DNA of 51,987 nt from sequence record PZ715803.1. The stretch is one strand, 5' to 3'. Of this stretch, positions 1,259 through 48,418 are shown in pieces. The position numbers and the translations under genes are program-made. How positions within the stretch are numbered: position 1 is the first letter of the stretch; each line of letters opens with the position of its first letter. The notes beneath the pieces are model-generated. The model was not told the origin of the DNA, made no database searches, and saw only the letters and a list, made by a program, of their open reading frames with translations. The DNA is from a phage.

Positions 1259-2314
1259 TTATAGATACTGCCTGAATTGAGCGCGCACCCAATCAGGAGT
1301 ATCAAGATCAATTTCTGGCTGCCCGTTTGCATACGAAGGCCATTCATCTAACTGTTGGCAAACGTTGAACTTGTTGATCACGCTCATGTACTGGATACGC
1401 CCAATCTTCAATTGCTCAATGTTCATGCGGAATGCGAGCGGCAAGTAAGGCTCTTTCTTCTCTTGAGCAAGCAATCTCACAATTACTGGCCTTTCCTCGT
1501 CTGGATAAGCCTTTTTGAATAAATCATGCTGCAAAGCCATTTTGAGATAATAGCCGTGATTGTAAGCCAGACGCTGGAAGTCAACCGGATTTGCGCTAAC
1601 CGTTGTTTTATAGTCAGTGATAATCACAGCTTCTGGATAGATGACTTCTTCATAAATCGGTCGGCCTTTTTCGTCGTAACCGTTAATGATTGTGGCCTTT
1701 ACATCCTTGTTTACGTCAACGTGATCAAGACGCACTTTAACTTTTACGCCATTGATGATCCCGAATATTGACATTTCACGCTGCGCGGTTGGGCTATTCA
1801 TGCAAGCATTATGCTCAGGTATTGCCTCAAGTACGCGCCGCATCGCTACACAGGCATCATAATCTTTCGCGTCGATTAACTGCACGCCGTCCGCTGCGGC
1901 CTGGCATTCTGCCATCATTTCGATAAGCCACCATACATTGAGATCCTCGCCGCACTTGTACAGCATTTCCAGCAATTCTGGATATTGCTTACCCGTTGTA
2001 CCTTTCAGGCCAAAAGATTTCAGCTTTGAGGCTAACGCCGTTTGACTTGTGATCAGATCTTTAAAATCATCCTGCGACGGTGCGCGGCGATATGTTTTTT
2101 CGAATAACTCCTTGCTTTCAAAATTGGTATGCGACTGCGTACCGAAAACAAGTGCCTTAGTTTCCTGGCGAGGCTTGTACTTCCAGTACGCCGGGCAAGT
2201 GCTGTAAATCTCCGCCAGGCTGGAACCGCTGACATATTCAGCCGTCCATGCGTTAGGATCATGATAAAGCTCGTTGCTCATTTCTTCGCTAGTGTAGGCG
2301 TTAAAATCACTCAT
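1259..2314 (-). CDS. PD-(D/E)XK-type 5'-3' exonuclease, recombination partner of ERF
   Basis: 351 aa; D...E-x-K-like segment (ITDYKTT); first gene of exo-erf-ssb operon. Confidence 0.7.
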   Translation of the reverse strand: MSDFNAYTSEEMSNELYHDPNAWTAEYVSGSSLAEIYSTCPAYWKYKPRQETKALVFGTQSHTNFESKELFEKTYRRAPSQDDFKDLITSQTALASKLKSFGLKGTTGKQYPELLEMLYKCGEDLNVWWLIEMMAECQAAADGVQLIDAKDYDACVAMRRVLEAIPEHNACMNSPTAQREMSIFGIINGVKVKVRLDHVDVNKDVKATIINGYDEKGRPIYEEVIYPEAVIITDYKTTVSANPVDFQRLAYNHGYYLKMALQHDLFKKAYPDEERPVIVRLLAQEKKEPYLPLAFRMNIEQLKIGRIQYMSVINKFNVCQQLDEWPSYANGQPEIDLDTPDWVRAQFRQYL

Positions 2315-2344
2315 CTTTAATGCTCCTATTTGCTTTGTGTGTGC

Positions 2345-2372
2345 ATTGTAGCCATTTGGTTGATTTAGTCAA
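2345..2372 (-). promoter_or_regulatory. Sigma70-like promoter for the exo-erf-ssb operon (TTGACT-16 bp-TACAAT on minus strand)
   Basis: Near-consensus hexamers with 16-bp spacer about 30 bp upstream of exo start codon. Confidence 0.5.
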
Positions 2373-2742
2373 TAGTTGTTTTGTTTTTTCTGTTTTCTAA
2401 ACGTTCTCAGATGGCAAGAAAACAAATCTGACACGTAAGTTAATGATTAACATGTGTTATTTTTCTTGTTCCCTTGTTCTCTCAGATACGCCGGATTATA
2501 TACATACACATGAATGATGGCACATGCAGATACTCAGAAAGAAAAATCACCACAAACAACCAAAACCACAAGAAACACAGATAACAAGAAAAAACAAATA
2601 TACATACATAAATAAATAAACTATTGATTTTATATGTATATATCTATTTTATTGATTGTTTATTGCTCTTATGTTGTCTAAAATTTGCGCTAAATTTACG
2701 CCGTCTTAAATTCGATAACGCTGGAAAACAAAAAATAACAAG

Positions 2743-2784
2743 TAGCACTTTTTGCTAAACTCGGCTTGCCGGATCGTGTATAGT
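2743..2784 (+). promoter_or_regulatory. Variant copy of the 19-bp element (TAGCACTTTTTGCTAAA) followed 21 bp later by TATAGT; promoter of the lipoprotein cassette
   Basis: Same architecture as the element copies upstream of early genes; CAACAACAA leader then AGGAG RBS. Confidence 0.45.
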
Positions 2785-2815
2785 TACAGCCAACAACAAC
2801 TAAGGAGTATTGAAG

Positions 2816-29753: not shown

Positions 29754-29975
29754 TCAATTAAAATGGATTTGCCTGTATTCTATTTCATCTGCCAGATCAT
29801 TTAACTTATCTGCCAGCTTGCGCACTTGGTCAACGGTAAGTATCGACCTAAAATCCGGCCTACGACCACCTTCAAACGTGCCATCAATAAACACGCGATC
29901 GCCGAACTTGTATACATCAATCGCGTCGCCGTGGTTATCAGTAAACCTGTGCTTGACGCGATTATTTGTTTTCAT
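29754..29975 (-). CDS. Hypothetical protein
   Basis: 73 aa. Confidence 0.6.
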   Translation of the reverse strand: MKTNNRVKHRFTDNHGDAIDVYKFGDRVFIDGTFEGGRRPDFRSILTVDQVRKLADKLNDLADEIEYRQIHFN

Positions 29976-30192
29976 CTTTCACTTCCTCAAATTCAGCCAT
30001 TACCATAGCGTGTGCCATAACCTTAGTGCCTTCGCCGCCGTTCAGGAACATGCGATGCCCCTTACTATTGCTCACGTAAAAAGATCCGGTTGATGATTTC
30101 AGTTTTTGCGCCGTATAGATTTCGCCAGGCTTGAACATGCCAGAGCAAGCATAGTTAACGGAAACGCATTTCATCTTCTTTTTAATGTACAT
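29962..30192 (-). CDS. Hypothetical protein
   Basis: ATG 30192 with AAGGAG RBS; element promoter with consensus TATAAT upstream. Confidence 0.6.
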   Translation of the reverse strand: MYIKKKMKCVSVNYACSGMFKPGEIYTAQKLKSSTGSFYVSNSKGHRMFLNGGEGTKVMAHAMVMAEFEEVKDENK

Positions 30193-30246
30193 CGTTTTAT
30201 CTCCTTCGTTGAAAGTGAGGCCATTATACCTGGCCCCACATTTGAG

Positions 30247-30265
30247 TTTTAACAAAAAGTGCTAT
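30247..30265 (-). promoter_or_regulatory. 19-bp element copy, then 21 bp, then TATAAT
   Basis: Exact consensus element and consensus -10 hexamer. Confidence 0.6.
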
Positions 30266-30414
30266 TTCTTAATACATAGCGTGTGAGTGTACGCATAAAA
30301 CCTGTTGTTGTTCTTGATCTGCTCTCGCGCCTCAATGCAAGATTGCTGGCTATTCATTTCGATATGGTCAACGCCGCCATCAATCATAAGAATCAGCAAA
30401 ATCCAGGTAGCCAT
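30262..30414 (-). CDS. Small hydrophobic protein (about 50 aa, below ORF-track cutoff)
   Basis: ATG with GAGGTGAGAG upstream; stop codon TAG lies inside the element copy. Confidence 0.3.
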   Translation of the reverse strand: MATWILLILMIDGGVDHIEMNSQQSCIEAREQIKNNNRFYAYTHTLCIKK

Positions 30415-32202: not shown

Positions 32203-32666
32203 TATTGCTCCTCCTCTTTGATGATTTCGCGGATCATATCCTGGTAGCGGCTTACGCCCTCACAAGCTCCAGCCAGTTTATCCCCTTCCAGGTCCACGAT
32301 GTTCGGGATTGCTGCCAGTAAGCGATCGGCAAACTTTTTGATCGCCCTTGCCTTGATGGCTGGCAATTCTTCGGGTGTGATGATTTTCCTTTTCGATTCG
32401 CGCACCATGCGGAAAACGTAAAATTTATCATCTTCCGTTTCCTCGACCTTGATACTTACCCGACCTGCGGCCCTTACTTCTGGAACGCGGTTGATAATGG
32501 TCCGGCTGTAGGATGAACTGCGCGTGATCTTGTAGCAGTCGTCACCGCTTAACATTCCGGCCAGGTCAATTAGTGACATTTTATACTCTTCAATATCGCC
32601 ACTAGCCAGGCGGCGACCAAGCTCGCGAAGCCAATCGCAATAGTCCTTAGTGGTCTTCTGTTCCAT
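32202..32666 (-). CDS. Hypothetical early protein (first gene of leftward early operon)
   Basis: ATG 32666 with GGAGG RBS downstream of a near-consensus sigma70 promoter. Confidence 0.65.
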   Translation of the reverse strand: MEQKTTKDYCDWLRELGRRLASGDIEEYKMSLIDLAGMLSGDDCYKITRSSSYSRTIINRVPEVRAAGRVSIKVEETEDDKFYVFRMVRESKRKIITPEELPAIKARAIKKFADRLLAAIPNIVDLEGDKLAGACEGVSRYQDMIREIIKEEEQ

Positions 32667-32697
32667 TTCCTTTCCTCCAGTTGTTGACTGTTGGCGC

Positions 32698-32725
32698 ATT
32701 ATAAAAGCTATTTGGTGCGTGTCAA
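32698..32725 (-). promoter_or_regulatory. Near-consensus sigma70 promoter (TTGACA-16 bp-TATAAT) for the leftward early operon
   Basis: Both hexamers consensus, read on minus strand about 30 bp upstream of the first early gene. Confidence 0.55.
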
Positions 32726-33159
32726 TGTTTTTGTTGTATTCAAAACGTTACCAATATCGAAAAACTACAAAATCATGCGCAAGTTATTGATTTCGCGGCT
32801 GTTATTTTTCTGTTCACGCTGTTAACGCAATCCGCCGGAAAAAGTATATATACATATGCAATCCGCCGCGCGCGCAACTATCCATATATGCCCACACACA
32901 ACCACACCATAACCAACAAAAAGCACTGTAACAGTGAGAACAAAAAGAAAACATTATAGATATATATAAATAAATAATCTTTATTTTCAATGTATTATAG
33001 AGGGATTTTTTTGTTTTTTCCGTTTTCGCTACACCGGAAAACCGCGCGGAAACATGCCGCCTGAAATCGGTAACAGGGGTGAACAAAAGACAACAACCAC
33101 TGACAGCCAGGCAAAAAAGTGAGGCAAGAGGGGAAGGTTTCACTATCTCCCCTGCAACC

Positions 33160-33250
33160 AATGATTAAACGTGATTGCTTTTCTCATCAAATTTGCAAAG
33201 GCAATCATCATTTTGACGTGATTTGATTACGAATGATTACTTTTGATTAT
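33160..33250 (+). repeat. Cluster of TGATT(A) direct repeats at 10-11 bp phasing (iteron-like)
   Basis: TGATTAC, TGATTAC, TGATTAT at about 33224, 33234, 33244, plus TGATTA/TGATTG at about 33160-33180. Confidence 0.45.
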
Positions 33251-33280
33251 TTCTATCGCAATCCTGGCGCTAACCGTCAA

Positions 33281-33299
33281 ATAGCACTTTTTGTTAAAA
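33281..33299 (+). promoter_or_regulatory. 19-bp element copy, then 22 bp, then TACATT; promoter of the rightward early operon
   Basis: Exact consensus; CATCGAAAC leader and GGAGA RBS follow. Confidence 0.55.
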
Positions 33300-33358
33300 C
33301 TCAGGCCACCTGATCGGGTACATTGCACACATCGAAACGAACCGCTCAGGAGATAGCA

Positions 33359-38035: not shown

Positions 38036-39616
38036 ATGTTTTCATTAGAAACGAACAAATTAACTCCACAGCAAATAATCGCTATGGCTGAAAGCCAGAA
38101 CCTTTCACCAGTTCGCGTATCAATTCAGGCTAACGGCTATCGCCAGTCGTCCAGCTTTTGGGGCGACGTGAAGGATGTAAATAGCGGTCACGATCGCTAC
38201 CCCGTTATTTCTCTTGGTAATGATATTGATGTTGTCGGCAAGCTATCACGCAGCATTGCGCGATCCGTTCAATTCCCTGAATCATCGGCTTACATGCACT
38301 TTATCGGCTGCATTTCTGCCGCTATGCTTGGACGCTTTACGGTTGACTATCACGGAACAGATCAGCCGACTGCGCTTTACGTCGTTACAAGCCAGCCGCC
38401 GTCAACTGGTAAATCTGCGATCAACAGCATGGCTATTGCTCCGATGATTGCGGAAGTTGAGAAGATCAACGAGCAACGCCGCAAGGAAAGAAAGAAAATA
38501 CAGGCAAAGTTGGCAGGTCTTGCAAAGGAGATGAAAAGCGAAAGGTCCGGCGCTGATATGGAATCTCTATACCAGGAAAAAGAGGATCTGGAGGAGAAGC
38601 TGGAAAAGATGTGTGATATAACTTTCCCTGTTTCAGATACAACTCCAGAAGGCTTGGCGAAAATCAACAACAAGCAAGGTAACTTTGCCGTAATATCTGA
38701 CGAAGCAACAAGTATTAACAGTCTGTTAGGCTTGACCTATGCAAATAGCGAAAGGAAGACTAACAGTGAGCTAGTGCTTAAGGCGTGGGATAATGGTCAC
38801 GTATCAATTGCCCGTGCTAATGCCGACAATAATATGAGTTTTCGCGCGCTTGGATGTATGAGCGTTATAGCACAGGATGAAACGATAAGCGGAATCATGG
38901 ACGCTGGATCGCGCGGTATCGGTGTGAGTGAGCGCTTTTTGTTGGTCCGCGAAGAATCATTCTTAGGCCGTCGCTCATTCATTGATGAAAATGGTGATTC
39001 TACCTATGAGGCGGTGGATTCTGAATTGAAAGCCCAATATTATCAATTGGTGCATAACATCATGAGCGAATCAAATATATCGCTGAAAATAAGCCGCTCA
39101 GCTATGCGAGTGCTCAACATTGCTCGCCAGGATATGGAACCGCATCTTGCAGACGGCGGAAAGTATTCTCATACAATGTTACGCGGTGCGCTGGGTAAAA
39201 TGGATAAACAGGTGATCAGGCTTGCTTCCGTCCTGCATGTTATCCGCAACTGGTTTAATCCTGCTGGATACCCGCAGAAGTCGAAAGAGATCGACGTGGA
39301 AACAATGCAAGAGGCGCTGATCATGTTTCAGGAATTGAGCAAAACATACATTAGCGCCGCCAATGCTTCTGGTTATGCTGGTGATGATGCTGAAATGGGC
39401 AAATTGATTGAATTGATCACTAGACACGGCAAGGCTAATAAAGGGATTCTGAATATTCGCGCCCTGTACGAATCAGCGAGAAAGGTAAAACCTTTCGTTG
39501 GTCAAGCTGGCGTAATGAAGAGGATAGAAGGGCACTTGCTGCCAATGCTGGAAGAAAGAAATTATGTTTGTGTTATTAATGGTGTTATTTTTGTCAATCC
39601 AATACTGCTGGGATGA
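38036..39616 (+). CDS. P-loop NTPase with Walker A/B (putative replication or recombination ATPase)
   Basis: 526 aa; Walker A QPPSTGKS, Walker B-like AVISDEA. Confidence 0.8.
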   Translation: MFSLETNKLTPQQIIAMAESQNLSPVRVSIQANGYRQSSSFWGDVKDVNSGHDRYPVISLGNDIDVVGKLSRSIARSVQFPESSAYMHFIGCISAAMLGRFTVDYHGTDQPTALYVVTSQPPSTGKSAINSMAIAPMIAEVEKINEQRRKERKKIQAKLAGLAKEMKSERSGADMESLYQEKEDLEEKLEKMCDITFPVSDTTPEGLAKINNKQGNFAVISDEATSINSLLGLTYANSERKTNSELVLKAWDNGHVSIARANADNNMSFRALGCMSVIAQDETISGIMDAGSRGIGVSERFLLVREESFLGRRSFIDENGDSTYEAVDSELKAQYYQLVHNIMSESNISLKISRSAMRVLNIARQDMEPHLADGGKYSHTMLRGALGKMDKQVIRLASVLHVIRNWFNPAGYPQKSKEIDVETMQEALIMFQELSKTYISAANASGYAGDDAEMGKLIELITRHGKANKGILNIRALYESARKVKPFVGQAGVMKRIEGHLLPMLEERNYVCVINGVIFVNPILLG

Positions 39617-44457: not shown

Positions 44458-44873
44458 TTAAGCATGTATTCAATAGCCAACTTAAACTGATTAAATCCGT
44501 AGGCGACCGCAGCGAATCCTCCTAAGCTGCGAACTCGACGCAAAAAAGCCTTTTGTTCATCGCTGACTGGTGATGCTTTACCCTTGCCTGATTTATTCAC
44601 TCGTTTGATCTCAATCGCTGCAAATGGGTATTTCCCGTTTAAACCAATCAGGATGATGAAATCGCTTACTCCCTTAACCAAGCCGGACTGCTGATCAATC
44701 ATCGCCGTTGCTTTAGACTTCTCATTCTCGTTTACCGTATGCCACGCCAGCAAATAAGGATGAGCATAAGTCAACCACTGAAAACTATCTATCTGGTGAT
44801 TAACTTCCCTTCTCGTGTCGGTTGGATCTCTTTCGTAAAACTCAAGATAATCGCCTTTATCAGTTATAGCCAT
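44454..44873 (-). CDS. VRR-NUC domain nuclease (PD-(D/E)XK)
   Basis: 139 aa; D...E-x-K segment (SDFIILIG...AIEIKR). Confidence 0.7.
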   Translation of the reverse strand: MAITDKGDYLEFYERDPTDTRREVNHQIDSFQWLTYAHPYLLAWHTVNENEKSKATAMIDQQSGLVKGVSDFIILIGLNGKYPFAAIEIKRVNKSGKGKASPVSDEQKAFLRRVRSLGGFAAVAYGFNQFKLAIEYMLK

Positions 44874-46870
44874 TAAACAAACTCCCGTTTTGCAATGTTA
44901 TCCTCACCTTTGCCGTTCTTGCGATGCGTTACGCGTACAGGCGGCATGATGTGATGAGCGTATGACATTATTTTACGCGCATTTCTATAGCTCGCCACCA
45001 TACCAGCAATCTTGCGATCCGGTATGTGCTGCAATGCTATTTTTCTCCATATCGTACGGCAAATGTTGCTTTCTGACTCAGGGAAAAATCTTTCGTATGC
45101 CTTGAACGTGTCGCCGTTTGCCTCAAGCTCATAGCAAAAAACAATTCCTTTCTGGTTTTTCGTCATATCAACGCGGAAAGATTTAACGTTGCACCAATCG
45201 TTTTTGGTGTAGTGCTTGCCGCTTAACTTCTCGTTAGGATCGACAAGAGAAATATCGCAACAACGGCATACTCTCGCCACTACGTCGTTTTTTGTTCCGC
45301 AACCGCGCTTGATTATCTTTTTCGTTCTCGGATCTACCTGGTCCTCGCAAATTCTGTAAGTCCAAAAATGCTCGCATCTCTTCCCGTTATCGTCTACGTG
45401 CATACATCGGCGAGCGTAAAAGCTGTTTAGCGTTCCACATATCGGGCAAGTCTTAGGCTCTTTCCCGTTTGTAAACCTCTTTTGGAATTGCGCTTGCTCA
45501 AGGATTGGATCGAAATACAAATCCCCTAACTCATCCATAGTACCAGCAAAATCCAATACAAGATGGTCTTTTTTCTTGAATCCCTGCTCAATGTGCCATT
45601 GCTTAAGCAGTCGCATACCGCGCCCCAAAAGCTGGATAAGCAATGTTAGAGATCCTATCTTTCTCAGTATTACAGAAGTATCCCAAAACGGAACGTTAAC
45701 GCCAGTGGTAAGCGCCTGTACCTGGAAGATGTATTTTACTTTTCCCTCGTATGCCTCCCTCAGCCACTCTTTACGCTGATTGTCTCCAGTCTTGCCAGTT
45801 ATGATCCTGTATTCAACGCCTGGCGGCAGTGCGGCGGCGGCCTCCTTGCAGTGTCTTTCCCCTGCGCATGTAACTAAAACTCCGTTCCTGTCTTTGCATA
45901 TCTCATGGACTTTAGCCATGATTTTCTGTGTCATTGTTGCGTCTTGATGGATCTTTTCTTCCATCTTGCGCAATGTTTTAGCGTCAAAGTCTGAAACGCC
46001 ATCCTCGCTACTGGCTTCGAACTCTGAAAGGTCATACCCCAGGTCGCCTACGTCGCCGAAATTTGTTGGCACTACAGAACCGAATTTGATTAAGTAGTTT
46101 GTGTCTATGTTAGTCACCTGCTCACGCCAGAATCCCTTTTTGTTCTTATCTTCAACCAGTATTGGAACCACGCCGCGAAATTCAGATCCAGTCATACCGA
46201 ATATTCGCAATTCGTGCCCGTATGCCTCGCGACACCTGCGCATCATTTCCATGATTATTACCGTGTACTGTGTGCGTCCTGTTCCGAACATTGGATCGCC
46301 ATTGGAATCAAATTGCTGTTCTTCTCCAATCAGTACAGGCAAATCCTTCTTAGTGGTCATCTGCTGGTAAGATTCATTATTTTCTATCGCGTCGGCGAGA
46401 TCCTCCCAATCCACCTGGTGACATTCATCAATACCGATAACGTGCGGAACATAATCACCTAACGACTTAAACAATCCGTTTACCACAGTGCCCTCAGAAC
46501 CGACTACGATCGGAAAGTATGCGCTTTTTGTTTTCAGTCCGGCGCAATAGATTGAGTTTGGCACGCCAAGATTGCTGATCTCTTCTGAATCCTGATCAAC
46601 AATTTCAGCCTGACGAGCAAGCACCATCATTTTCAATCCCATTTTGCGGCATTGCGCCGCAACCATCGCAAACATCAATGTTTTGCCAGCCGACACAGAA
46701 GCCTTAACAAAGAAAGGATGCTCATAGTTTTTCATGCGCTTTGCGATCTCGGCATACGCAACGCACTGATAAGGATAAGGCACTATATTGCCAACAGTGA
46801 ATCGCTCTTGGATGCTTTTTATTACTGCCTCGCCTAACGCTGATATTTGTTTTTCGATATTTGGAATCAT
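44873..46870 (-). CDS. SF2 DExH-box helicase with C-terminal Cys-rich zinc-ribbon region
   Basis: Walker A SAGKT, DECH box, multiple CxxC pairs in the C-terminal 200 aa. Confidence 0.85.
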   Translation of the reverse strand: MIPNIEKQISALGEAVIKSIQERFTVGNIVPYPYQCVAYAEIAKRMKNYEHPFFVKASVSAGKTLMFAMVAAQCRKMGLKMMVLARQAEIVDQDSEEISNLGVPNSIYCAGLKTKSAYFPIVVGSEGTVVNGLFKSLGDYVPHVIGIDECHQVDWEDLADAIENNESYQQMTTKKDLPVLIGEEQQFDSNGDPMFGTGRTQYTVIIMEMMRRCREAYGHELRIFGMTGSEFRGVVPILVEDKNKKGFWREQVTNIDTNYLIKFGSVVPTNFGDVGDLGYDLSEFEASSEDGVSDFDAKTLRKMEEKIHQDATMTQKIMAKVHEICKDRNGVLVTCAGERHCKEAAAALPPGVEYRIITGKTGDNQRKEWLREAYEGKVKYIFQVQALTTGVNVPFWDTSVILRKIGSLTLLIQLLGRGMRLLKQWHIEQGFKKKDHLVLDFAGTMDELGDLYFDPILEQAQFQKRFTNGKEPKTCPICGTLNSFYARRCMHVDDNGKRCEHFWTYRICEDQVDPRTKKIIKRGCGTKNDVVARVCRCCDISLVDPNEKLSGKHYTKNDWCNVKSFRVDMTKNQKGIVFCYELEANGDTFKAYERFFPESESNICRTIWRKIALQHIPDRKIAGMVASYRNARKIMSYAHHIMPPVRVTHRKNGKGEDNIAKREFV

Positions 46871-46957: not shown

Positions 46958-47434
46958 ATGAAAGATGCACGAATTGCAGTGTCTACGGGTGAGATCGACA
47001 AGCGCACTATTAACGGTAACAACGGAACGCGACGAGGTAAAGACAAAAAGCCACGAAAACACCGAACCGGATTTCTTATCCTGCGAGATGAGGTAAAAGC
47101 AAGCCTGAAATCTCGCCTTGACATTCTGATCGAGTATTACGGCGGCGTTCCTGCTATGGCTCGACGTCTGCGCGTATCTCAGCAAGTCGTTAACCAGTGG
47201 CGAAAGCGTGGTATGATTTCAGCCGCTGGAGCACAAAAGGTGCATAACGACTACAAATATAATGGATGCAAAGGATACCGCGCCTCGTTTTGTCGTCCAG
47301 ATCTGCGGTTTGATTCTAACGGCAAGCCTCTTACTACCCGTTGCGACAAATACGAAATGTTGCGCGTAGTCAAAAATTCAGACTACGAACCAGGCGGACG
47401 ATTCTACAAAGGTGATAACAGCACGAATAGCTAA
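46958..47434 (+). CDS. Helix-turn-helix DNA-binding protein
   Basis: Cro/CI-like HTH segment (MARRLRVSQQVVNQWRKRG); GAGGTGA RBS. Confidence 0.65.
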   Translation: MKDARIAVSTGEIDKRTINGNNGTRRGKDKKPRKHRTGFLILRDEVKASLKSRLDILIEYYGGVPAMARRLRVSQQVVNQWRKRGMISAAGAQKVHNDYKYNGCKGYRASFCRPDLRFDSNGKPLTTRCDKYEMLRVVKNSDYEPGGRFYKGDNSTNS

Positions 47435-47441
47435 TGATAAG

Positions 47442-47476
47442 GCCCAGCGAAATGATAATATTTGCTGGGCTTTTTT
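47442..47476 (+). terminator. Intrinsic terminator (GCCCAGC...GCTGGGC plus T6)
   Basis: Stem-loop followed by TTTTTTATT. Confidence 0.65.
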
Positions 47477-47488
47477 ATTGAGGTTGCT

Positions 47489-48418
47489 ATGAATACTGAA
47501 AACTTTATGACCTATCAGAAAGAAGATGTTTTGCCATATATGAAGGGGTTATGGCGTGAAGCACTACAAAGCATTTGCGGACTGCATAGCGATGTTTTCA
47601 ACAAAAAGCATCAGCCTTGCCCACACTGCGGCGGTAAGGATCGTTTTAGATGGACTGATAAGCTAAATGAAGAGGGCGACGGCGGCGCGATCTGCAACGT
47701 GTGCGGTAACGACACGGGGATCGGTTGGTTAATGAAATTAACTGGCGAACCTTACAGCGAGGCCATCAACATTTTGGGTCGCTTCCTCGGAAAAGTGCCG
47801 CAGGATTACAGGATCAGAGCAAACAAACGCGCTTCGCGTTCTTCTGGTTACTCGTTCGGGAAACAGGCAAGTCATGAATGCTGCGAAAAAGTGATGGCAA
47901 AAACATTAAAATTCGATCGCACACCTTTAAGCGTTTATGAGGGGATATATCCGCCGGAAGGTTGTCATTATGATTGCGGCGTCAAGGATGGTCGATACAT
48001 TCACGCGCTACCTTGTCACCTGGTGCATGATGATGGGCTGGATGATGAAATGTGTAACGTGCTTTTCATTGATGAGGATGGAAAGGATTGGTTTTTAGCT
48101 CGCGACTACACGCGCGGGTCTGTTGTTAAAACAGGTAGCACAGATAAGACGATCTATTTGTGCCTTGATTGGGTTGATTCCCAGCATGTTCATTTATCAA
48201 CTGGTCAAGAGGTGTGGGCCTGCTTTACTCCTTCAAATCTTGAAATGGTTGCGCATAGATATAAAGGAGAAAGAAGAATGCGCGTAGTCTGCCGGAAGGA
48301 TGATCGTGATGTGATAATCGCGGCAGAGGAAAGAGGTCTTGACATAATGATGCCTGTTAACGATAATTTTAAACAGGGCGTAGAAAGAAAACTCTACAAG
48401 CCCGAATCACTGCTATAA
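47489..48418 (+). CDS. Putative DNA primase (zinc-ribbon CxxC...CxxC N-terminus)
   Basis: CPHCGG...CNVCG zinc-binding motif near N-terminus; ATG 47489 with GAGG RBS. Confidence 0.6.
   Translation: MNTENFMTYQKEDVLPYMKGLWREALQSICGLHSDVFNKKHQPCPHCGGKDRFRWTDKLNEEGDGGAICNVCGNDTGIGWLMKLTGEPYSEAINILGRFLGKVPQDYRIRANKRASRSSGYSFGKQASHECCEKVMAKTLKFDRTPLSVYEGIYPPEGCHYDCGVKDGRYIHALPCHLVHDDGLDDEMCNVLFIDEDGKDWFLARDYTRGSVVKTGSTDKTIYLCLDWVDSQHVHLSTGQEVWACFTPSNLEMVAHRYKGERRMRVVCRKDDRDVIIAAEERGLDIMMPVNDNFKQGVERKLYKPESLL

What the first reader, a model, noticed from the sequence alone, without database searches (positions are those of the whole stretch)
2320..2815. Large non-coding control region A, paralogous to region B
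About 500 bp with no credible ORF between divergent units (exo operon leftward, lipoprotein cassette rightward). It contains, in order, T-rich blocks, a CA-rich tract of (AAC/CAC/AAG)-type repeats (about 2548-2600), ATAAATAAATAA, and AT-rich TATAT blocks with TTGATT repeats. The same motifs in the same order recur in region B (32700-33330), at roughly 65 percent identity over about 160 bp. The conserved part lies between the outward-facing promoters and is probably not transcribed, which fits an origin of replication, a DNA unwinding element or a nucleoid-protein binding hub better than a leader.
Basis: seen in the sequence. Interest (0 to 1): 0.65.

Follow-up and report, generated by a model that had tools for sequence, protein, structure and literature searches.

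The report
Duplicated origin-like module in T1-like phage
A T1-like coliphage carries two related non-coding modules of about 270 bp (260-275 bp aligned), each holding one of the two most easily melted DNA stretches in its genome, and these are the best candidates so far for the still-unmapped replication origins of this phage family, although a role in controlling the neighbouring early promoters is not excluded.

Summary
The window is a complete Warwickvirus genome (Drexlerviridae, T1-like).

- **Homology:** Region A (2382-2642) and region B (32726-32999) align over 261/274 nt. Identity is 79% of aligned columns, z = 8.6 against 10-nt block shuffles.
- **Genome extremes:** their AT cores (2597-2656, 32942-33001) are the two least stable duplex segments of the 52-kb genome. 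The adjoining A+C tracts are its two most strand-skewed 60-mers.
- **Conservation:** phage T1 shows the same two instability extremes. In 42 related exonuclease loci the least stable 60-mer lies +258 to +312 nt from the exonuclease start in 41. The core is more conserved than the exonuclease promoter.
- **Associated elements:** each module starts at a near-consensus leftward sigma-70 promoter. It contains an IHF-type site and matched GC boxes and TGTTCAC-type boxes bracketing the core.
- **Excluded:** no conserved ORF, Rfam hit, consistent RNA structure, internal promoter or DnaA box.

Best reading (about 0.4): two paralogous origin-like unwinding modules, analogous to SPP1 oriL/oriR, opened with help from divergent transcription and used by the phage's MCM-like helicase and P4-alpha-type primase. 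Main rival (about 0.3): an extended IHF/supercoil-dependent upstream control region of the early promoters. Only experiments can decide.

The parts
2345..2372 (-). Leftward sigma-70 promoter of the exonuclease VIII / annealase / SSB operon (TTGACT-16-TACAAT). It is the left boundary of module A.
   Evidence: The -35 element TAGTCAA is invariant in 10 orthologues from 5 genera.
2376..2402 (-). T-block 1. It is A-rich on the transcribed-strand side, directly upstream of the -35, so it is UP-element-like. The A/B homology starts here.
   Evidence: TRF unit TGTTTTC x3.
2436..2448 (-). Conserved IHF-type site TAAG-N4-TGAT. It has one mismatch to WATCAANNNNTTR in A, while its B counterpart at 32780-32792 matches exactly.
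   Evidence: Invariant columns T122 A123 A124 G125 ... T130 G131 A132 T133 (positions in the first sequence of alignment A1).
2454..2482 (.). T-block 2 (GTGTTATTTTTCTTGTTCCCTTGTTCTC). It carries degenerate TGTTCCC/TGTTCTC copies of the TGTTCAC box.
2486..2508 (.). GC box 1 (ATACGCCGGAT) followed by TATATACATACA box 1.
   Evidence: Direct repeat with 2697-2711, spacing 210. The 8-mers ATATACAT and TATACATA occur 4 times in the genome, all in A or B.
2539..2598 (+). A+C tract: 90% A+C on the + strand, the most skewed 60-mer of the genome. Composition is conserved but sequence is not.
2574..2599 (+). A-block 1 (AACACAGATAACAAGAAAAAACAAAT), the most conserved block of the module (73-92% identity across genera).
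2597..2656 (.). AT core: the least stable 60-bp duplex of the genome. It contains ATAAATAAATAA, an inverted TATACAT box and an exact IHF consensus at 2617-2629 (-).
2694..2742 (.). GC box 2 (TTTACGCCGTCT) and A-block 2 (GATAACGCTGGAAAACAAAAAATAACAAG). This is the right boundary of module A.
   Evidence: an HMM of this block finds the B copy at 33067-33095 as best non-self hit, E 0.9.
2742..2784 (+). Rightward DR-type promoter of the cor-like lipoprotein gene (TAGCACTTTTTGCTAAA ... TATAGT).
   Evidence: The DR family is described in PMC11447400.
32698..32725 (-). Leftward sigma-70 promoter with a perfect 12/12 consensus (TTGACA-16-TATAAT). It is the left boundary of module B.
32726..32750 (-). 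T-block 1 of module B (UP-like).
32780..32792 (-). Exact IHF consensus AATCAATAACTTG, homologous to the A site at 2436-2448.
   Evidence: There are 8 matches in the genome against 3.9 expected, and 2 of them fall in A or B.
32800..32868 (.). T-block 2 unit with TGTTCAC (32811-32817), GC box 1 (GCAATCCGCCG twice, at 32827 and 32858) and a TATATATACATAT box (32845-32857).
   Evidence: I1: 25-nt inverted repeat with 32929-32953, 80% complementary.
32894..32953 (+). A+C tract of B (83% A+C, second most skewed 60-mer of the genome). It ends in the A-block 1 unit at 32928-32953.
32942..33001 (.). AT core of B, the second least stable 60-bp duplex of the genome. It starts +276 nt from the leftward ATG, against +283 in A.
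33006..33095 (.). T-block 3 (33006-33030), GC box 2 (CATGCCGCCTGA, 33053-33064) and the A-block 2 unit (33070-33095) with the inverted GTGAACA (33079-33085).
   Evidence: (D2: 26-nt direct repeat with 32928-32953).

Best explanation
Regions A and B are two copies of one ancient non-coding DNA-level module of Drexlerviridae. Its functional heart is a DNA unwinding element, the AT core. In Tempevirinae this core is preceded by a strand-asymmetric A+C tract.

The core is bracketed by matched protein-recognition boxes: GC boxes about 200-230 bp apart, TGTTCAC-type boxes, and A/T-blocks. An IHF-type bending site sits on the promoter side.

I propose that these modules are the phage's replication origins, or one origin plus a related cis-site as in SPP1 oriL/oriR or P4 ori/crr. 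The proposed sequence of events is as follows.
1. After infection, host RNA polymerase fires the near-consensus leftward promoter, and in most genera also the rightward DR promoter. Both point away from the core.
2. The negative supercoiling left behind, together with IHF bending and a phage DNA-binding factor on the flanking boxes, melts the core.
3. The phage's MCM-like (DUF3987, SF6) helicase, which has a C-terminal winged helix, is loaded together with the P4-alpha-type primase.
4. Host Pol III elongates.
5. The adjacent exonuclease/annealase/SSB operon then converts replication to concatemer synthesis.

Shown here: the homology, the extreme meltability and skew, the conservation and constraint, the promoters by consensus, the absence of coding or RNA signals, and the nature of the helicase and primase.

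Inferred: every functional step, that is melting in vivo, factor binding, helicase loading and origin activity.
For: 1. A and B are true homologues.
2. Their cores are ranks 1 and 2 for duplex instability in this genome (z 4.3-5.0) and in phage T1 (z 5.3-5.9, next best 3.2-3.8). T1 belongs to a different subfamily, and its two regions are also paralogous to each other (score 66 vs 23+-3).
3. In 41 of 42 distinct exonuclease loci (57-100% protein identity) the least stable 60-mer of a ~4-kb locus lies +258 to +312 nt from the exonuclease start. The exception is L048, an apparently error-prone assembly.
4. There is purifying selection. Four-fold degenerate sites of the neighbouring gene are 36-47% identical. 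A-block 1 is 73-92% identical, the AT core 64-72% and the promoter itself 57-64%.
5. Box evidence:
   - In T1 all 6 genomic TGTTACA heptamers lie in the two regions, 4 of them flanking the AT core (p 2.5e-10).
   - TGTTCAC is 34-fold enriched in region-A modules (30 in about 17.7 kb against 7 in about 150 kb). It is typically an inverted pair at +161/+390, and is present at 32811/33085 in B.
   - The left and right GC boxes change together between lineages: ACGCC/ACGCC, TGCGGTGGG/TGCGGTGGG, TGCGGAG/TGCGGAG.
6. IHF-type sites are conserved or exact.
7. The module persists in Tlsvirus without a divergent gene, so it is not mere spacer between promoters.
8. No origin has been found for T1-like phages (PMC11447400 and PMC7718038).
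10. Precedent: SPP1 has two origins of similar organisation, with repeats plus an AT-rich DUE, and dA+dT islands are its strongest sequence bias (PMC6316719).
Against: - No origin activity, melting or protein binding has been measured.
- No initiator protein is identified. The winged-helix helicase and the Cro-like HTH protein (46958-47434) are only candidates.
- Repeats within a single region of this window are not significant against shuffles. In region A of this phage the TGTTCAC boxes are degenerate.
- The module is always attached to a strong early promoter at a nearly fixed distance, which is equally what a promoter-control element would show.
- It is 4.7 kb or more from the helicase and primase genes.
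- There are no DnaA boxes, and no replication-related GC-skew signal can be separated from gene orientation.
- The A+C tract is missing in the T1 group, so it cannot be essential to a family-wide mechanism.
Confidence: 0.4

Rival explanations
1. The module is an extended upstream control region of the two immediate-early sigma-70 promoters. An UP-like T-block, an IHF bend at about -105 and a distal supercoil-destabilised AT region would together tune or switch the leftward promoter. The model would be the ilvPG upstream activating sequence or IHF plus a distant UP element at lambda pL (both recalled from my own knowledge). Alternatively it could be an operator array for a phage regulator that shuts early transcription off. 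Under this reading the duplication simply copied a promoter together with its control region.
For: - The homology begins immediately upstream of the -35 and includes the UP-like block.
- Both copies sit on near-consensus promoters, which are among the few such intergenic promoters in the genome (the TLS paper found only three).
- The IHF-type site is at a fixed distance from the -35 in all Tempevirinae.
- The core-to-gene distance is conserved between paralogues and across subfamilies.
- The module stays with the leftward promoter when the divergent gene is absent.
- A/T-blocks also lie directly upstream of the rightward DR promoter.
Against: - A 12/12 or 10/12 consensus promoter should not need help with open-complex formation.
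- The best-conserved parts lie at about -240 to -320, further than known UP/IHF effects, and are more conserved than the promoter.
- Other sigma-70-like promoters in the genome have no such module.
- Predicted curvature is unremarkable.
Confidence: 0.3
2. The modules are another kind of cis-acting DNA site that needs easily opened DNA. Possibilities are a packaging (pac)-related site, a recombination hot spot for the adjacent exonuclease/annealase system, or a replication-fork barrier of the SPP1 oriR type.
For: - Position 1 of the T1 RefSeq record, which is the start of the annotated 2800-bp terminal repeat, lies inside the region-B equivalent.
- Region A adjoins the recombination operon.
- SPP1 oriR is proposed to act as a fork barrier (PMC6316719).
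Against: - T1 position 1 is about 220 bp beyond the AT core, in the B-specific part, not in the shared module.
- Two pac sites 30 kb apart would be incompatible with ordered headful packaging.
- Nothing links the boxes to terminase.
Confidence: 0.12
3. The region is transcribed and acts as RNA. This could be an sRNA, a long leader, or an A/C-rich unstructured RNA acting as a Rho-loading site, an Hfq sponge or a translational enhancer.
For: - The A+C tract would give a G-poor, unstructured RNA.
- The minus-strand fold of A has z = -2.26.
- A conserved CTATAAT on the minus strand is present at the right edge of the core in 7 of 11 modules (by eye, from the sequences printed).
Against: - There is no Rfam hit at gathering thresholds.
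- Three of the four strand folds are not different from shuffles, with z -0.7, -0.9 and +0.16.
- There is no conserved -35/-10 pair with constant spacing inside the module. The candidate spacers vary from 16 to 21 nt between genera (sequences).
- There is no conserved terminator and no conserved ORF or Shine-Dalgarno sequence.
- The A+C tract is conserved in composition only.
Confidence: 0.06
4. There is no function. The similarity would be compositional drift of two AT-rich intergenic spacers.
For: Low-complexity sequence inflates similarity, and single-region repeats are not significant.
Against: - The alignment beats shuffles that preserve composition in 10-nt blocks (z 8.6).
- Conservation is far above neutral four-fold degenerate sites.
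- The same architecture is present in 42 loci and in T1.
Confidence: 0.02

Closest known systems
Bacillus phage SPP1 oriL / oriR
   Same: - It is a pac-type siphovirus with two origins of similar organisation, each with repeats plus an AT-rich DNA unwinding element.
- dA+dT islands are the strongest sequence bias of its genome.
- One origin lies in a long intergenic region.
- Replication then switches to concatemer synthesis using a phage exonuclease, annealase and SSB (PMC6316719).
- The T1-like phage has the analogous exonuclease VIII / recombination protein / SSB operon next to region A.
   Different: - There is no sequence similarity.
- The SPP1 initiator gp38 and its binding boxes are defined experimentally, whereas here no initiator is known.
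- SPP1 uses a DnaB-type helicase plus a loader, while this phage has an MCM-like DUF3987 helicase.
- The A+C tract and the fixed linkage to a consensus promoter have no SPP1 counterpart that I know of.
Satellite phage P4 ori / crr with alpha protein
   Same: - It has two related cis regions on one genome.
- Its short type-1 boxes are TGTTCACC, in both orientations (RefSeq annotation). They share 7 of 8 bases with the TGTTCAC boxes enriched in the Tempevirinae modules.
- The primase of this phage is homologous to the alpha primase domain (E 2e-13).
   Different: - P4 has 6-10 clustered boxes per region. Here there are at most 2 exact copies per module, and none in region A of this window.
- No homologue of the alpha helicase or origin-binding domain was detected by tblastn.
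- The box resemblance may be coincidental.
SaPI (staphylococcal pathogenicity island) origins with Rep initiator-helicase
   Different: - The SaPI origin lies directly next to rep, whereas here the modules are kilobases away from the helicase gene.
- The repeats here are few and weak.
- No binding data exist.
IHF-dependent, supercoil-dependent upstream activating regions (ilvPG UAS; lambda pL with IHF and a distant UP element); also gidA transcription activating oriC
   Same: They combine a strong promoter, an A/T-rich upstream region, an IHF site about 90-105 bp upstream and a supercoil-destabilised AT segment. Transcription away from an unwinding element promotes its opening. All of this is from my own knowledge of these systems.
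   Different: Those elements act within about 100-220 bp of the promoter and are not duplicated as conserved modules of about 270 bp. Here the most constrained part is at -240 to -320, and the promoters are already consensus.
21-nt direct repeat of T1-like phages (aaATAGCACnnnTTGnTAAAA)
   Same: The right ends of A and B carry one copy each (2742-2759, 33281-33299). The family is described for TLS, T1, Rtp and Rogue1, with function unknown (PMC11447400).
   Different: The DR is a separate element of about 20 copies that marks rightward and leftward promoters throughout the genome. It is not part of the A/B paralogous core.

Membership tests
Phage/plasmid replication origin of the 'binding boxes + DNA unwinding element' kind (SPP1 oriL/R, lambda ori, SaPI ori) | An AT-rich, easily melted DNA unwinding element | tested here: met
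   The cores are ranks 1 and 2 for duplex instability in the window and in T1. The position is conserved in 41 of 42 loci. This is a thermodynamic prediction only.
Phage/plasmid replication origin of the 'binding boxes + DNA unwinding element' kind (SPP1 oriL/R, lambda ori, SaPI ori) | Multiple repeated binding sites (iterons) next to the unwinding element | tested here: inconclusive
   - T1: all 6 of 6 TGTTACA heptamers lie in the two regions.
- TGTTCAC is 34-fold enriched in modules.
- The GC boxes co-vary between lineages.
- However, single-region repeat scores in this window are not above shuffles, and HMM hits are weak.
Phage/plasmid replication origin of the 'binding boxes + DNA unwinding element' kind (SPP1 oriL/R, lambda ori, SaPI ori) | A cognate initiator protein that binds the boxes | not testable with these tools
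   Only candidates exist: the DUF3987 helicase with a C-terminal winged helix and a Cro-like HTH protein.
Phage/plasmid replication origin of the 'binding boxes + DNA unwinding element' kind (SPP1 oriL/R, lambda ori, SaPI ori) | Replication actually initiates there, or the element supports autonomous or phage-dependent replication | not testable with these tools
   This needs marker-frequency analysis, 2D gels or plasmid assays.
P4 ori/crr | Clusters of type-1 octamers TGTTCACC | tested here: not met
   P4 has 6 (ori) and 5+5 (crr) annotated type-1 boxes, all 6 in ori exact and the crr copies with one-base variants. The window has 0 TGTTCAC in A and 2 in B, of which one is the full octamer.
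P4 ori/crr | An alpha-type origin-binding domain encoded by the element | tested here: not met
   tblastn of P4 alpha against the window and T1 finds only the primase domain (aa 20-263). More sensitive methods were not tried.
UP element / IHF-assisted upstream activating region | A sigma-70 promoter with an A/T-rich block at -40 to -60 | tested here: met
   Promoters were found by consensus, with the T-block abutting the -35 and conserved.
UP element / IHF-assisted upstream activating region | An IHF consensus site upstream at a fixed distance | tested here: met
   There is an exact WATCAANNNNTTR at 32780-32792. The A homologue has one mismatch. The core bases are invariant in 10 orthologues.
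UP element / IHF-assisted upstream activating region | Promoter activity depends on the upstream region, on IHF or on supercoiling | not testable with these tools
   This needs reporter assays.
Known non-coding RNA families (Rfam 15) | A match to a covariance model at its gathering score | tested here: not met
   There were 0 matches in the whole window.
DnaA-dependent origin (oriC-like) | A cluster of DnaA boxes TTATNCACA | tested here: not met
   There is no exact box anywhere in the window. One-mismatch sites are not enriched (43 found against 50 expected), and only one lies in A.

The most novel reading that the evidence does not exclude
These modules would be the first identified replication origins served by a bacteriophage MCM-like (SF6, DUF3987) helicase. 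The inverted TGTTCAC and GC boxes would position the winged-helix helicase on either side of a transcription-opened AT core. The almost G/T-free A+C strand in Tempevirinae would be a dedicated structure-free single-strand loading or priming track. The second copy would work as a partner site or fork barrier that triggers the switch to recombination-driven concatemer synthesis by the adjacent exonuclease/annealase/SSB operon.
Probability: 0.2. Interest if true: 0.75.

Novelty: new variant of a known kind. Interest (0 to 1): 0.55.

Why it matters
T1 is one of the seven classical T phages, and Drexlerviridae are very common in coliphage collections and as laboratory and fermenter contaminants. 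Even so, recent genome papers state that no origin could be found (PMC11447400, PMC7718038).

A precise, family-wide, duplicated candidate of about 270 bp makes this old gap directly testable with simple plasmid, deletion and marker-frequency experiments.

If the modules are origins, they would show how an MCM-like bacterial-virus helicase is recruited. They would also give a handle for engineering or blocking T1-like phages. If instead they control the early promoters, they would be an unusually long and conserved IHF- and supercoil-sensing upstream element on consensus promoters.

Tried and rejected
1. **Coding.** Small ORFs cross the CA tract in A and B, but in different frames, without a Shine-Dalgarno sequence and without conservation in orthologues. 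Rejected.
2. **Structured RNA.** There are no Rfam hits. Fold z-scores are -0.7, -2.26, -0.9 and +0.16. Rejected as the main explanation.
3. **Internal sigma-70 promoters.** Candidates at the GC1/TATACAT junction have spacers of 16-21 nt that vary between genera. The conserved minus-strand CTATAAT lacks any -35 or TGn. Not accepted.
4. **Tandem-repeat nature of the CA tract.** TRF finds none.
5. **Intrinsic curvature as the key property.** It reaches only the 91st-99th percentile.
6. **DnaA boxes.** None found.
7. **Iterons within this window alone.** Best direct and inverted repeat scores are not above shuffles, the flank-to-flank repeats are individually non-significant, and the HMM of A-block 2 gives only weak extra hits.
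8. **Replication-related GC skew.** It cannot be separated from gene orientation. There is no difference between the two halves of the long leftward block.
9. **The same module elsewhere.** No match in 72,556 plasmids or in 5,426 E. coli genomes.
10. **Exact-pattern scan of IMG/VR** with ATAYATAAATAAATAA returned only unrelated low-complexity hits.
11. **Orthologues of region B via its left neighbour (DUF7174)** gave only 2 loci.
12. **Literature.** No transcription-start or origin mapping for Drexlerviridae was found. The T1 genome paper is not held. A search for 'TGTTCACC' returned only primer sequences.
13. **P4 alpha origin-binding domain homologue.** Not found by tblastn.
Full report
**Identity of the window**

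Megablast of both regions finds about 95 Escherichia/Shigella phages at 95-99% identity (EC167, tonijn, FritzSarasin, SECphi27 and others). FritzSarasin is classified as Drexlerviridae; Tempevirinae; Warwickvirus. The window is therefore a complete T1-like genome.

Region A (2315-2815) lies between exonuclease VIII and a small lipoprotein gene. Exonuclease VIII (1259-2314, minus strand) is the first gene of an operon that also encodes a recombination protein and SSB. The lipoprotein gene (ATG at 2816) is annotated as Cor in a relative. Region B (32667-33358) lies between two divergent blocks of small early genes.

**The observation**

A local alignment joins A 2382-2642 to B 32726-32999, with 198 matches and 52 mismatches. 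The score is 98. Mononucleotide shuffles give 22.5+-2.7. Shuffles confined to 10-nt blocks, which keep the order of compositional blocks, give 35+-7.3. The best score of A against the rest of the genome is 41, and that comes from the shared DR promoters.

Nearest-neighbour stability in sliding windows puts 2597-2656 and 32942-33001 at ranks 1 and 2 of the genome at all three window sizes (z 4.3-5.0). The A+C content of the plus strand puts 2539-2598 (0.90) and 32894-32953 (0.83) at ranks 1 and 2 (mean 0.50, sd 0.077).

**Transcription signals**

Each region has a near-consensus sigma-70 promoter immediately in front of the leftward gene. In A it is TTGACT-16-TACAAT at 2372..2345. In B it is the perfect TTGACA-16-TATAAT at 32725..32698.

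The right ends carry one copy each of the 21-nt direct repeat aaATAGCACnnnTTGnTAAAA, followed by a -10-like hexamer. This repeat occurs about 20 times in the window, always in the direction of transcription. It is a known but unexplained feature of T1-like phages (PMC11447400). The conserved part thus lies between outward-pointing promoters. No conserved promoter with constant spacing was found inside it (sequences).

**Not coding and not a structured RNA**

ORFs crossing the CA tract are in different frames in A and B, have no Shine-Dalgarno sequence and are not conserved in other genera. Rfam gives no hit in the whole window. Folding 300 nt of each strand of each region gives z-scores of -0.70, -2.26, -0.90 and +0.16. 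The one mildly low value reflects DNA-level inverted repeats around the AT core.

**Comparative evidence**

- *T1 itself.* Phage T1 (Tunavirinae) has the same two large intergenic regions: cor/exonuclease VIII at 29851-30377, and ST1/ST77 across the record ends. These regions are paralogous to each other around a TATATA core (score 66 against 23+-3). They are again ranks 1 and 2 for duplex instability (z 5.3-5.9, next best 3.2-3.8).
- *Exonuclease loci.* A scan of IMG/VR with the exonuclease protein returned 43 loci with 57-100% identity. In 41 of the 42 distinct ones the least stable 60-mer of the ~4-kb locus starts +258 to +312 nt from the exonuclease start codon. The exception is L048, an apparently error-prone assembly. 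In Tempevirinae the most A+C-rich 60-mer (0.73-0.90) lies just promoter-proximal of it, whereas the T1 group has no such tract. In region B of the window the core starts at +276, against +283 in A.
- *Alignment of ten region-A orthologues from five genera.* It shows invariant promoter elements and a T-rich UP-like block. It also shows an invariant TAAG-N4-TGAT, a second T-block, a GC box (ATTTACGCCGGAT type) and a compositionally conserved A+C tract. The strongly conserved stretch is AACAAnAGAAAACAAATAGATATATATAAATAAATAAACT...ATGTAT.ATAGA. It is followed by a second GC box and an A-block.
- *Constraint.* Four-fold degenerate sites of the adjoining exonuclease gene are only 36-47% identical to the window. 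A-block 1 is 73-92% identical, the AT core 64-72% and the promoter segment 57-64%. The core is therefore under at least as much constraint as the promoter.
- *Tlsvirus.* In GS156, Stevie and TLS there is no rightward gene. The module abuts the terminator of the tail gene, so it is not merely spacer between divergent promoters.
- *Distribution.* Region-B-type cores are found twice per genome in many Klebsiella, Salmonella, Citrobacter and Enterobacter Drexlerviridae. Nothing similar exists in PLSDB plasmids or in complete E. coli genomes.

**Candidate protein sites**

- The IHF consensus WATCAANNNNTTR occurs 8 times in the window (3.9+-2.0 expected). Two of the eight are in the regions. One is at 32780-32792, on the conserved TAAG-N4-TGAT site, whose A homologue has one mismatch. 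The other is at 2617-2629, inside the A core.
- There are no DnaA boxes.
- The 8-mers ATATACAT and TATACATA occur four times in the genome, all in A or B.
- In T1, all six TGTTACA heptamers of the genome lie in the two regions, and four of them flank the AT core of region A. Five of the six GATTAACA lie in region B.
- In Tempevirinae the heptamer TGTTCAC is 34-fold enriched in region-A modules (30 in about 17.7 kb against 7 in about 150 kb). It is typically an inverted pair at +161/+390. Region B of the window has the pair (32811 plus strand, 33079-33085 inverted). Region A has only degenerate copies.
- The left and right GC boxes, about 200-230 bp apart, change together between lineages: ACGCC.. 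with ACGCC.., TGCGGTGGG with TGCGGTGGG, and TGCGGAG with TGCGGAG. This is what two sites read by one co-evolving factor would do.
- Against this, the best direct and inverted repeats inside a single region of this window are not above shuffles, and an HMM of A-block 2 finds only weak further copies. I therefore treat 'iterons' as supported at family level, but not proven for this genome.
- Predicted curvature and A-tract phasing are elevated (91st-99th percentile) but are not genome extremes.

**Replication proteins**

- Pfam and PHROGs identify a primase with the primase-helicase zinc ribbon (47462-48418). They also identify an SF2 helicase (44873-46870), a Cro/YdaS-like HTH protein next to the primase (46958-47434) and a DUF3987 'DNA helicase' (38036-39616).
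- The primase is homologous to the primase domain of P4 alpha (aa 20-263, E 2e-13). No counterpart of the alpha origin-binding domain was detected. The P4 type-1 boxes are TGTTCACC. The resemblance to TGTTCAC is a lead, not a membership.
- No recognisable initiator protein was found.

**Interpretation**

The combined anatomy is a genome-extreme, constrained unwinding element, bracketed by matched short boxes, with an IHF-type site. It sits between promoters that fire away from it, is present twice per genome and is conserved across a family that brings its own helicase and primase and has no known origin. This anatomy is best matched by a replication origin.

The closest precedent is SPP1, with two origins of similar organisation (repeats plus an AT-rich DUE), one of them intergenic (PMC6316719).

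The mechanism I propose is inferred, not shown. Supercoiling from divergent early transcription, plus IHF and a phage factor, melts the core. The MCM-like helicase and the primase then enter, and the adjacent exonuclease/annealase/SSB operon supports the later switch to concatemers.

The main rival is that the module is an extended upstream control region of the two immediate-early promoters. In its favour, the homology starts at the UP-like block, the IHF site is at a fixed distance, and the core keeps a nearly constant distance from the leftward gene in both paralogues and both subfamilies. It also stays with that promoter in Tlsvirus. Against it, the promoters are already consensus, and the most constrained part lies 240-320 bp upstream.

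The two readings are not exclusive, because an origin can be transcription-activated. I assign 0.40 to the origin reading and 0.30 to the control-region reading. Other DNA-level sites (pac, recombination, fork barrier) get 0.12, RNA-level function 0.06 and no function 0.02. The remainder goes to explanations not considered.

**Novelty and interest**

I found no description of this duplicated module. Two recent Drexlerviridae genome papers state explicitly that an origin was not found. GenBank records mark at most short automatic 'repeat_region' features there.

If it is an origin, it is a new variant of a known kind (unwinding element plus boxes, duplicated as in SPP1 or P4). Its unusual traits are an almost G/T-free strand tract in one subfamily, tight linkage to a consensus early promoter, and an MCM-like helicase as the likely client.

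The finding is of solid but specialist interest. It turns a long-open question about a classical phage into a set of simple experiments.

Noticed in passing
window, about 20 sites, e.g. 13521+, 17272+, 33281+, 34585+, 35091+, 37290+, 40126+, 26129-, 27449-, 28951-, 30265-, 31482-, 31945-, 43387-, 44457-, 46946-: DR-type promoters have the form ATAGCAC-N3-TTGnTAAAA followed 22 nt after TTGnTA by a -10-like GnTAtAaT, so TTGTTA is not at -35 spacing. Many copies have a GC-rich inverted repeat between the DR and the -10, for example GCCAGGCGCAAAGCCTGGC, CGCCCGGCCTAGTGTCGGGC and CTGGCGCGATGGATTGCGCCA. The DR is listed as unexplained in the TLS paper, and I did not find the hairpins mentioned there (only retrieved passages were read).
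   Followed up: partly
window 33096-33278: The B-specific right part has no counterpart in A.
- It has TGATTA repeats at 33162, 33224, 33234 and 33244 (TRF period 10).
- It has a hairpin, AGGGGA...TCCCCT, at about 33129-33153.
- Its predicted curvature is among the highest in the genome.
- In T1, position 1 of the RefSeq record (the start of the annotated 2800-bp terminal repeat) falls in the equivalent part, about 220 bp beyond the AT core.

This makes it a possible pac neighbourhood.
   Followed up: partly
[not shown]
   Followed up: yes
window 46958-47434 (+) and 47462-48418 (+): A Cro/YdaS-like HTH protein of 158 aa (PDB Cro-type hits, E 6e-4) is encoded directly upstream of a primase. The primase is homologous to the P4 alpha primase domain (E 2e-13). 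The HTH protein is a candidate binder of the DR motif or of the module boxes.
   Followed up: partly
window 32698-32725 (-): This is a perfect 12/12 sigma-70 consensus promoter (TTGACA-16-TATAAT), the only one in the genome. It drives a block of small early genes that starts with a DUF7174 protein (32205-32666).
   Followed up: partly
L046, L173 and L174 (TLS, Salmonella phage GS156, phage Stevie_ev116): Tlsvirus genomes lack the cor-like gene. Their region A sits between the tail-protein gene terminator and the exonuclease promoter, yet it keeps the full module, including an inverted TGTTCAC pair at +161/+390.
   Followed up: partly
L006 (T1) 152-508 and 29938-30099: T1 has its own box set. 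TGTTACA(C) occurs 6 times in the genome, all in the two regions. GATTAACA has 5 of its 6 copies in region B, including three tandem GTGTTAATC units. The Tempevirinae TGTTCAC box is not concentrated in the T1 regions.
   Followed up: partly
L048 (Shigella phage 2019SD1 locus): The exonuclease match is longer than in the other loci, and the promoter-proximal half of the module appears to be missing or displaced. The DR there has one T fewer. This is probably an assembly with homopolymer errors, since the record is labelled UNVERIFIED_ASMBLY for its helicase.
   Followed up: no
window 32814-33161 (-): A 115-codon ORF runs through module B and is probably the source of the 'hypothetical protein' calls under region B in some GenBank records. 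Its translation is low-complexity and it is not conserved in W011D, so it is very likely spurious.
   Followed up: partly
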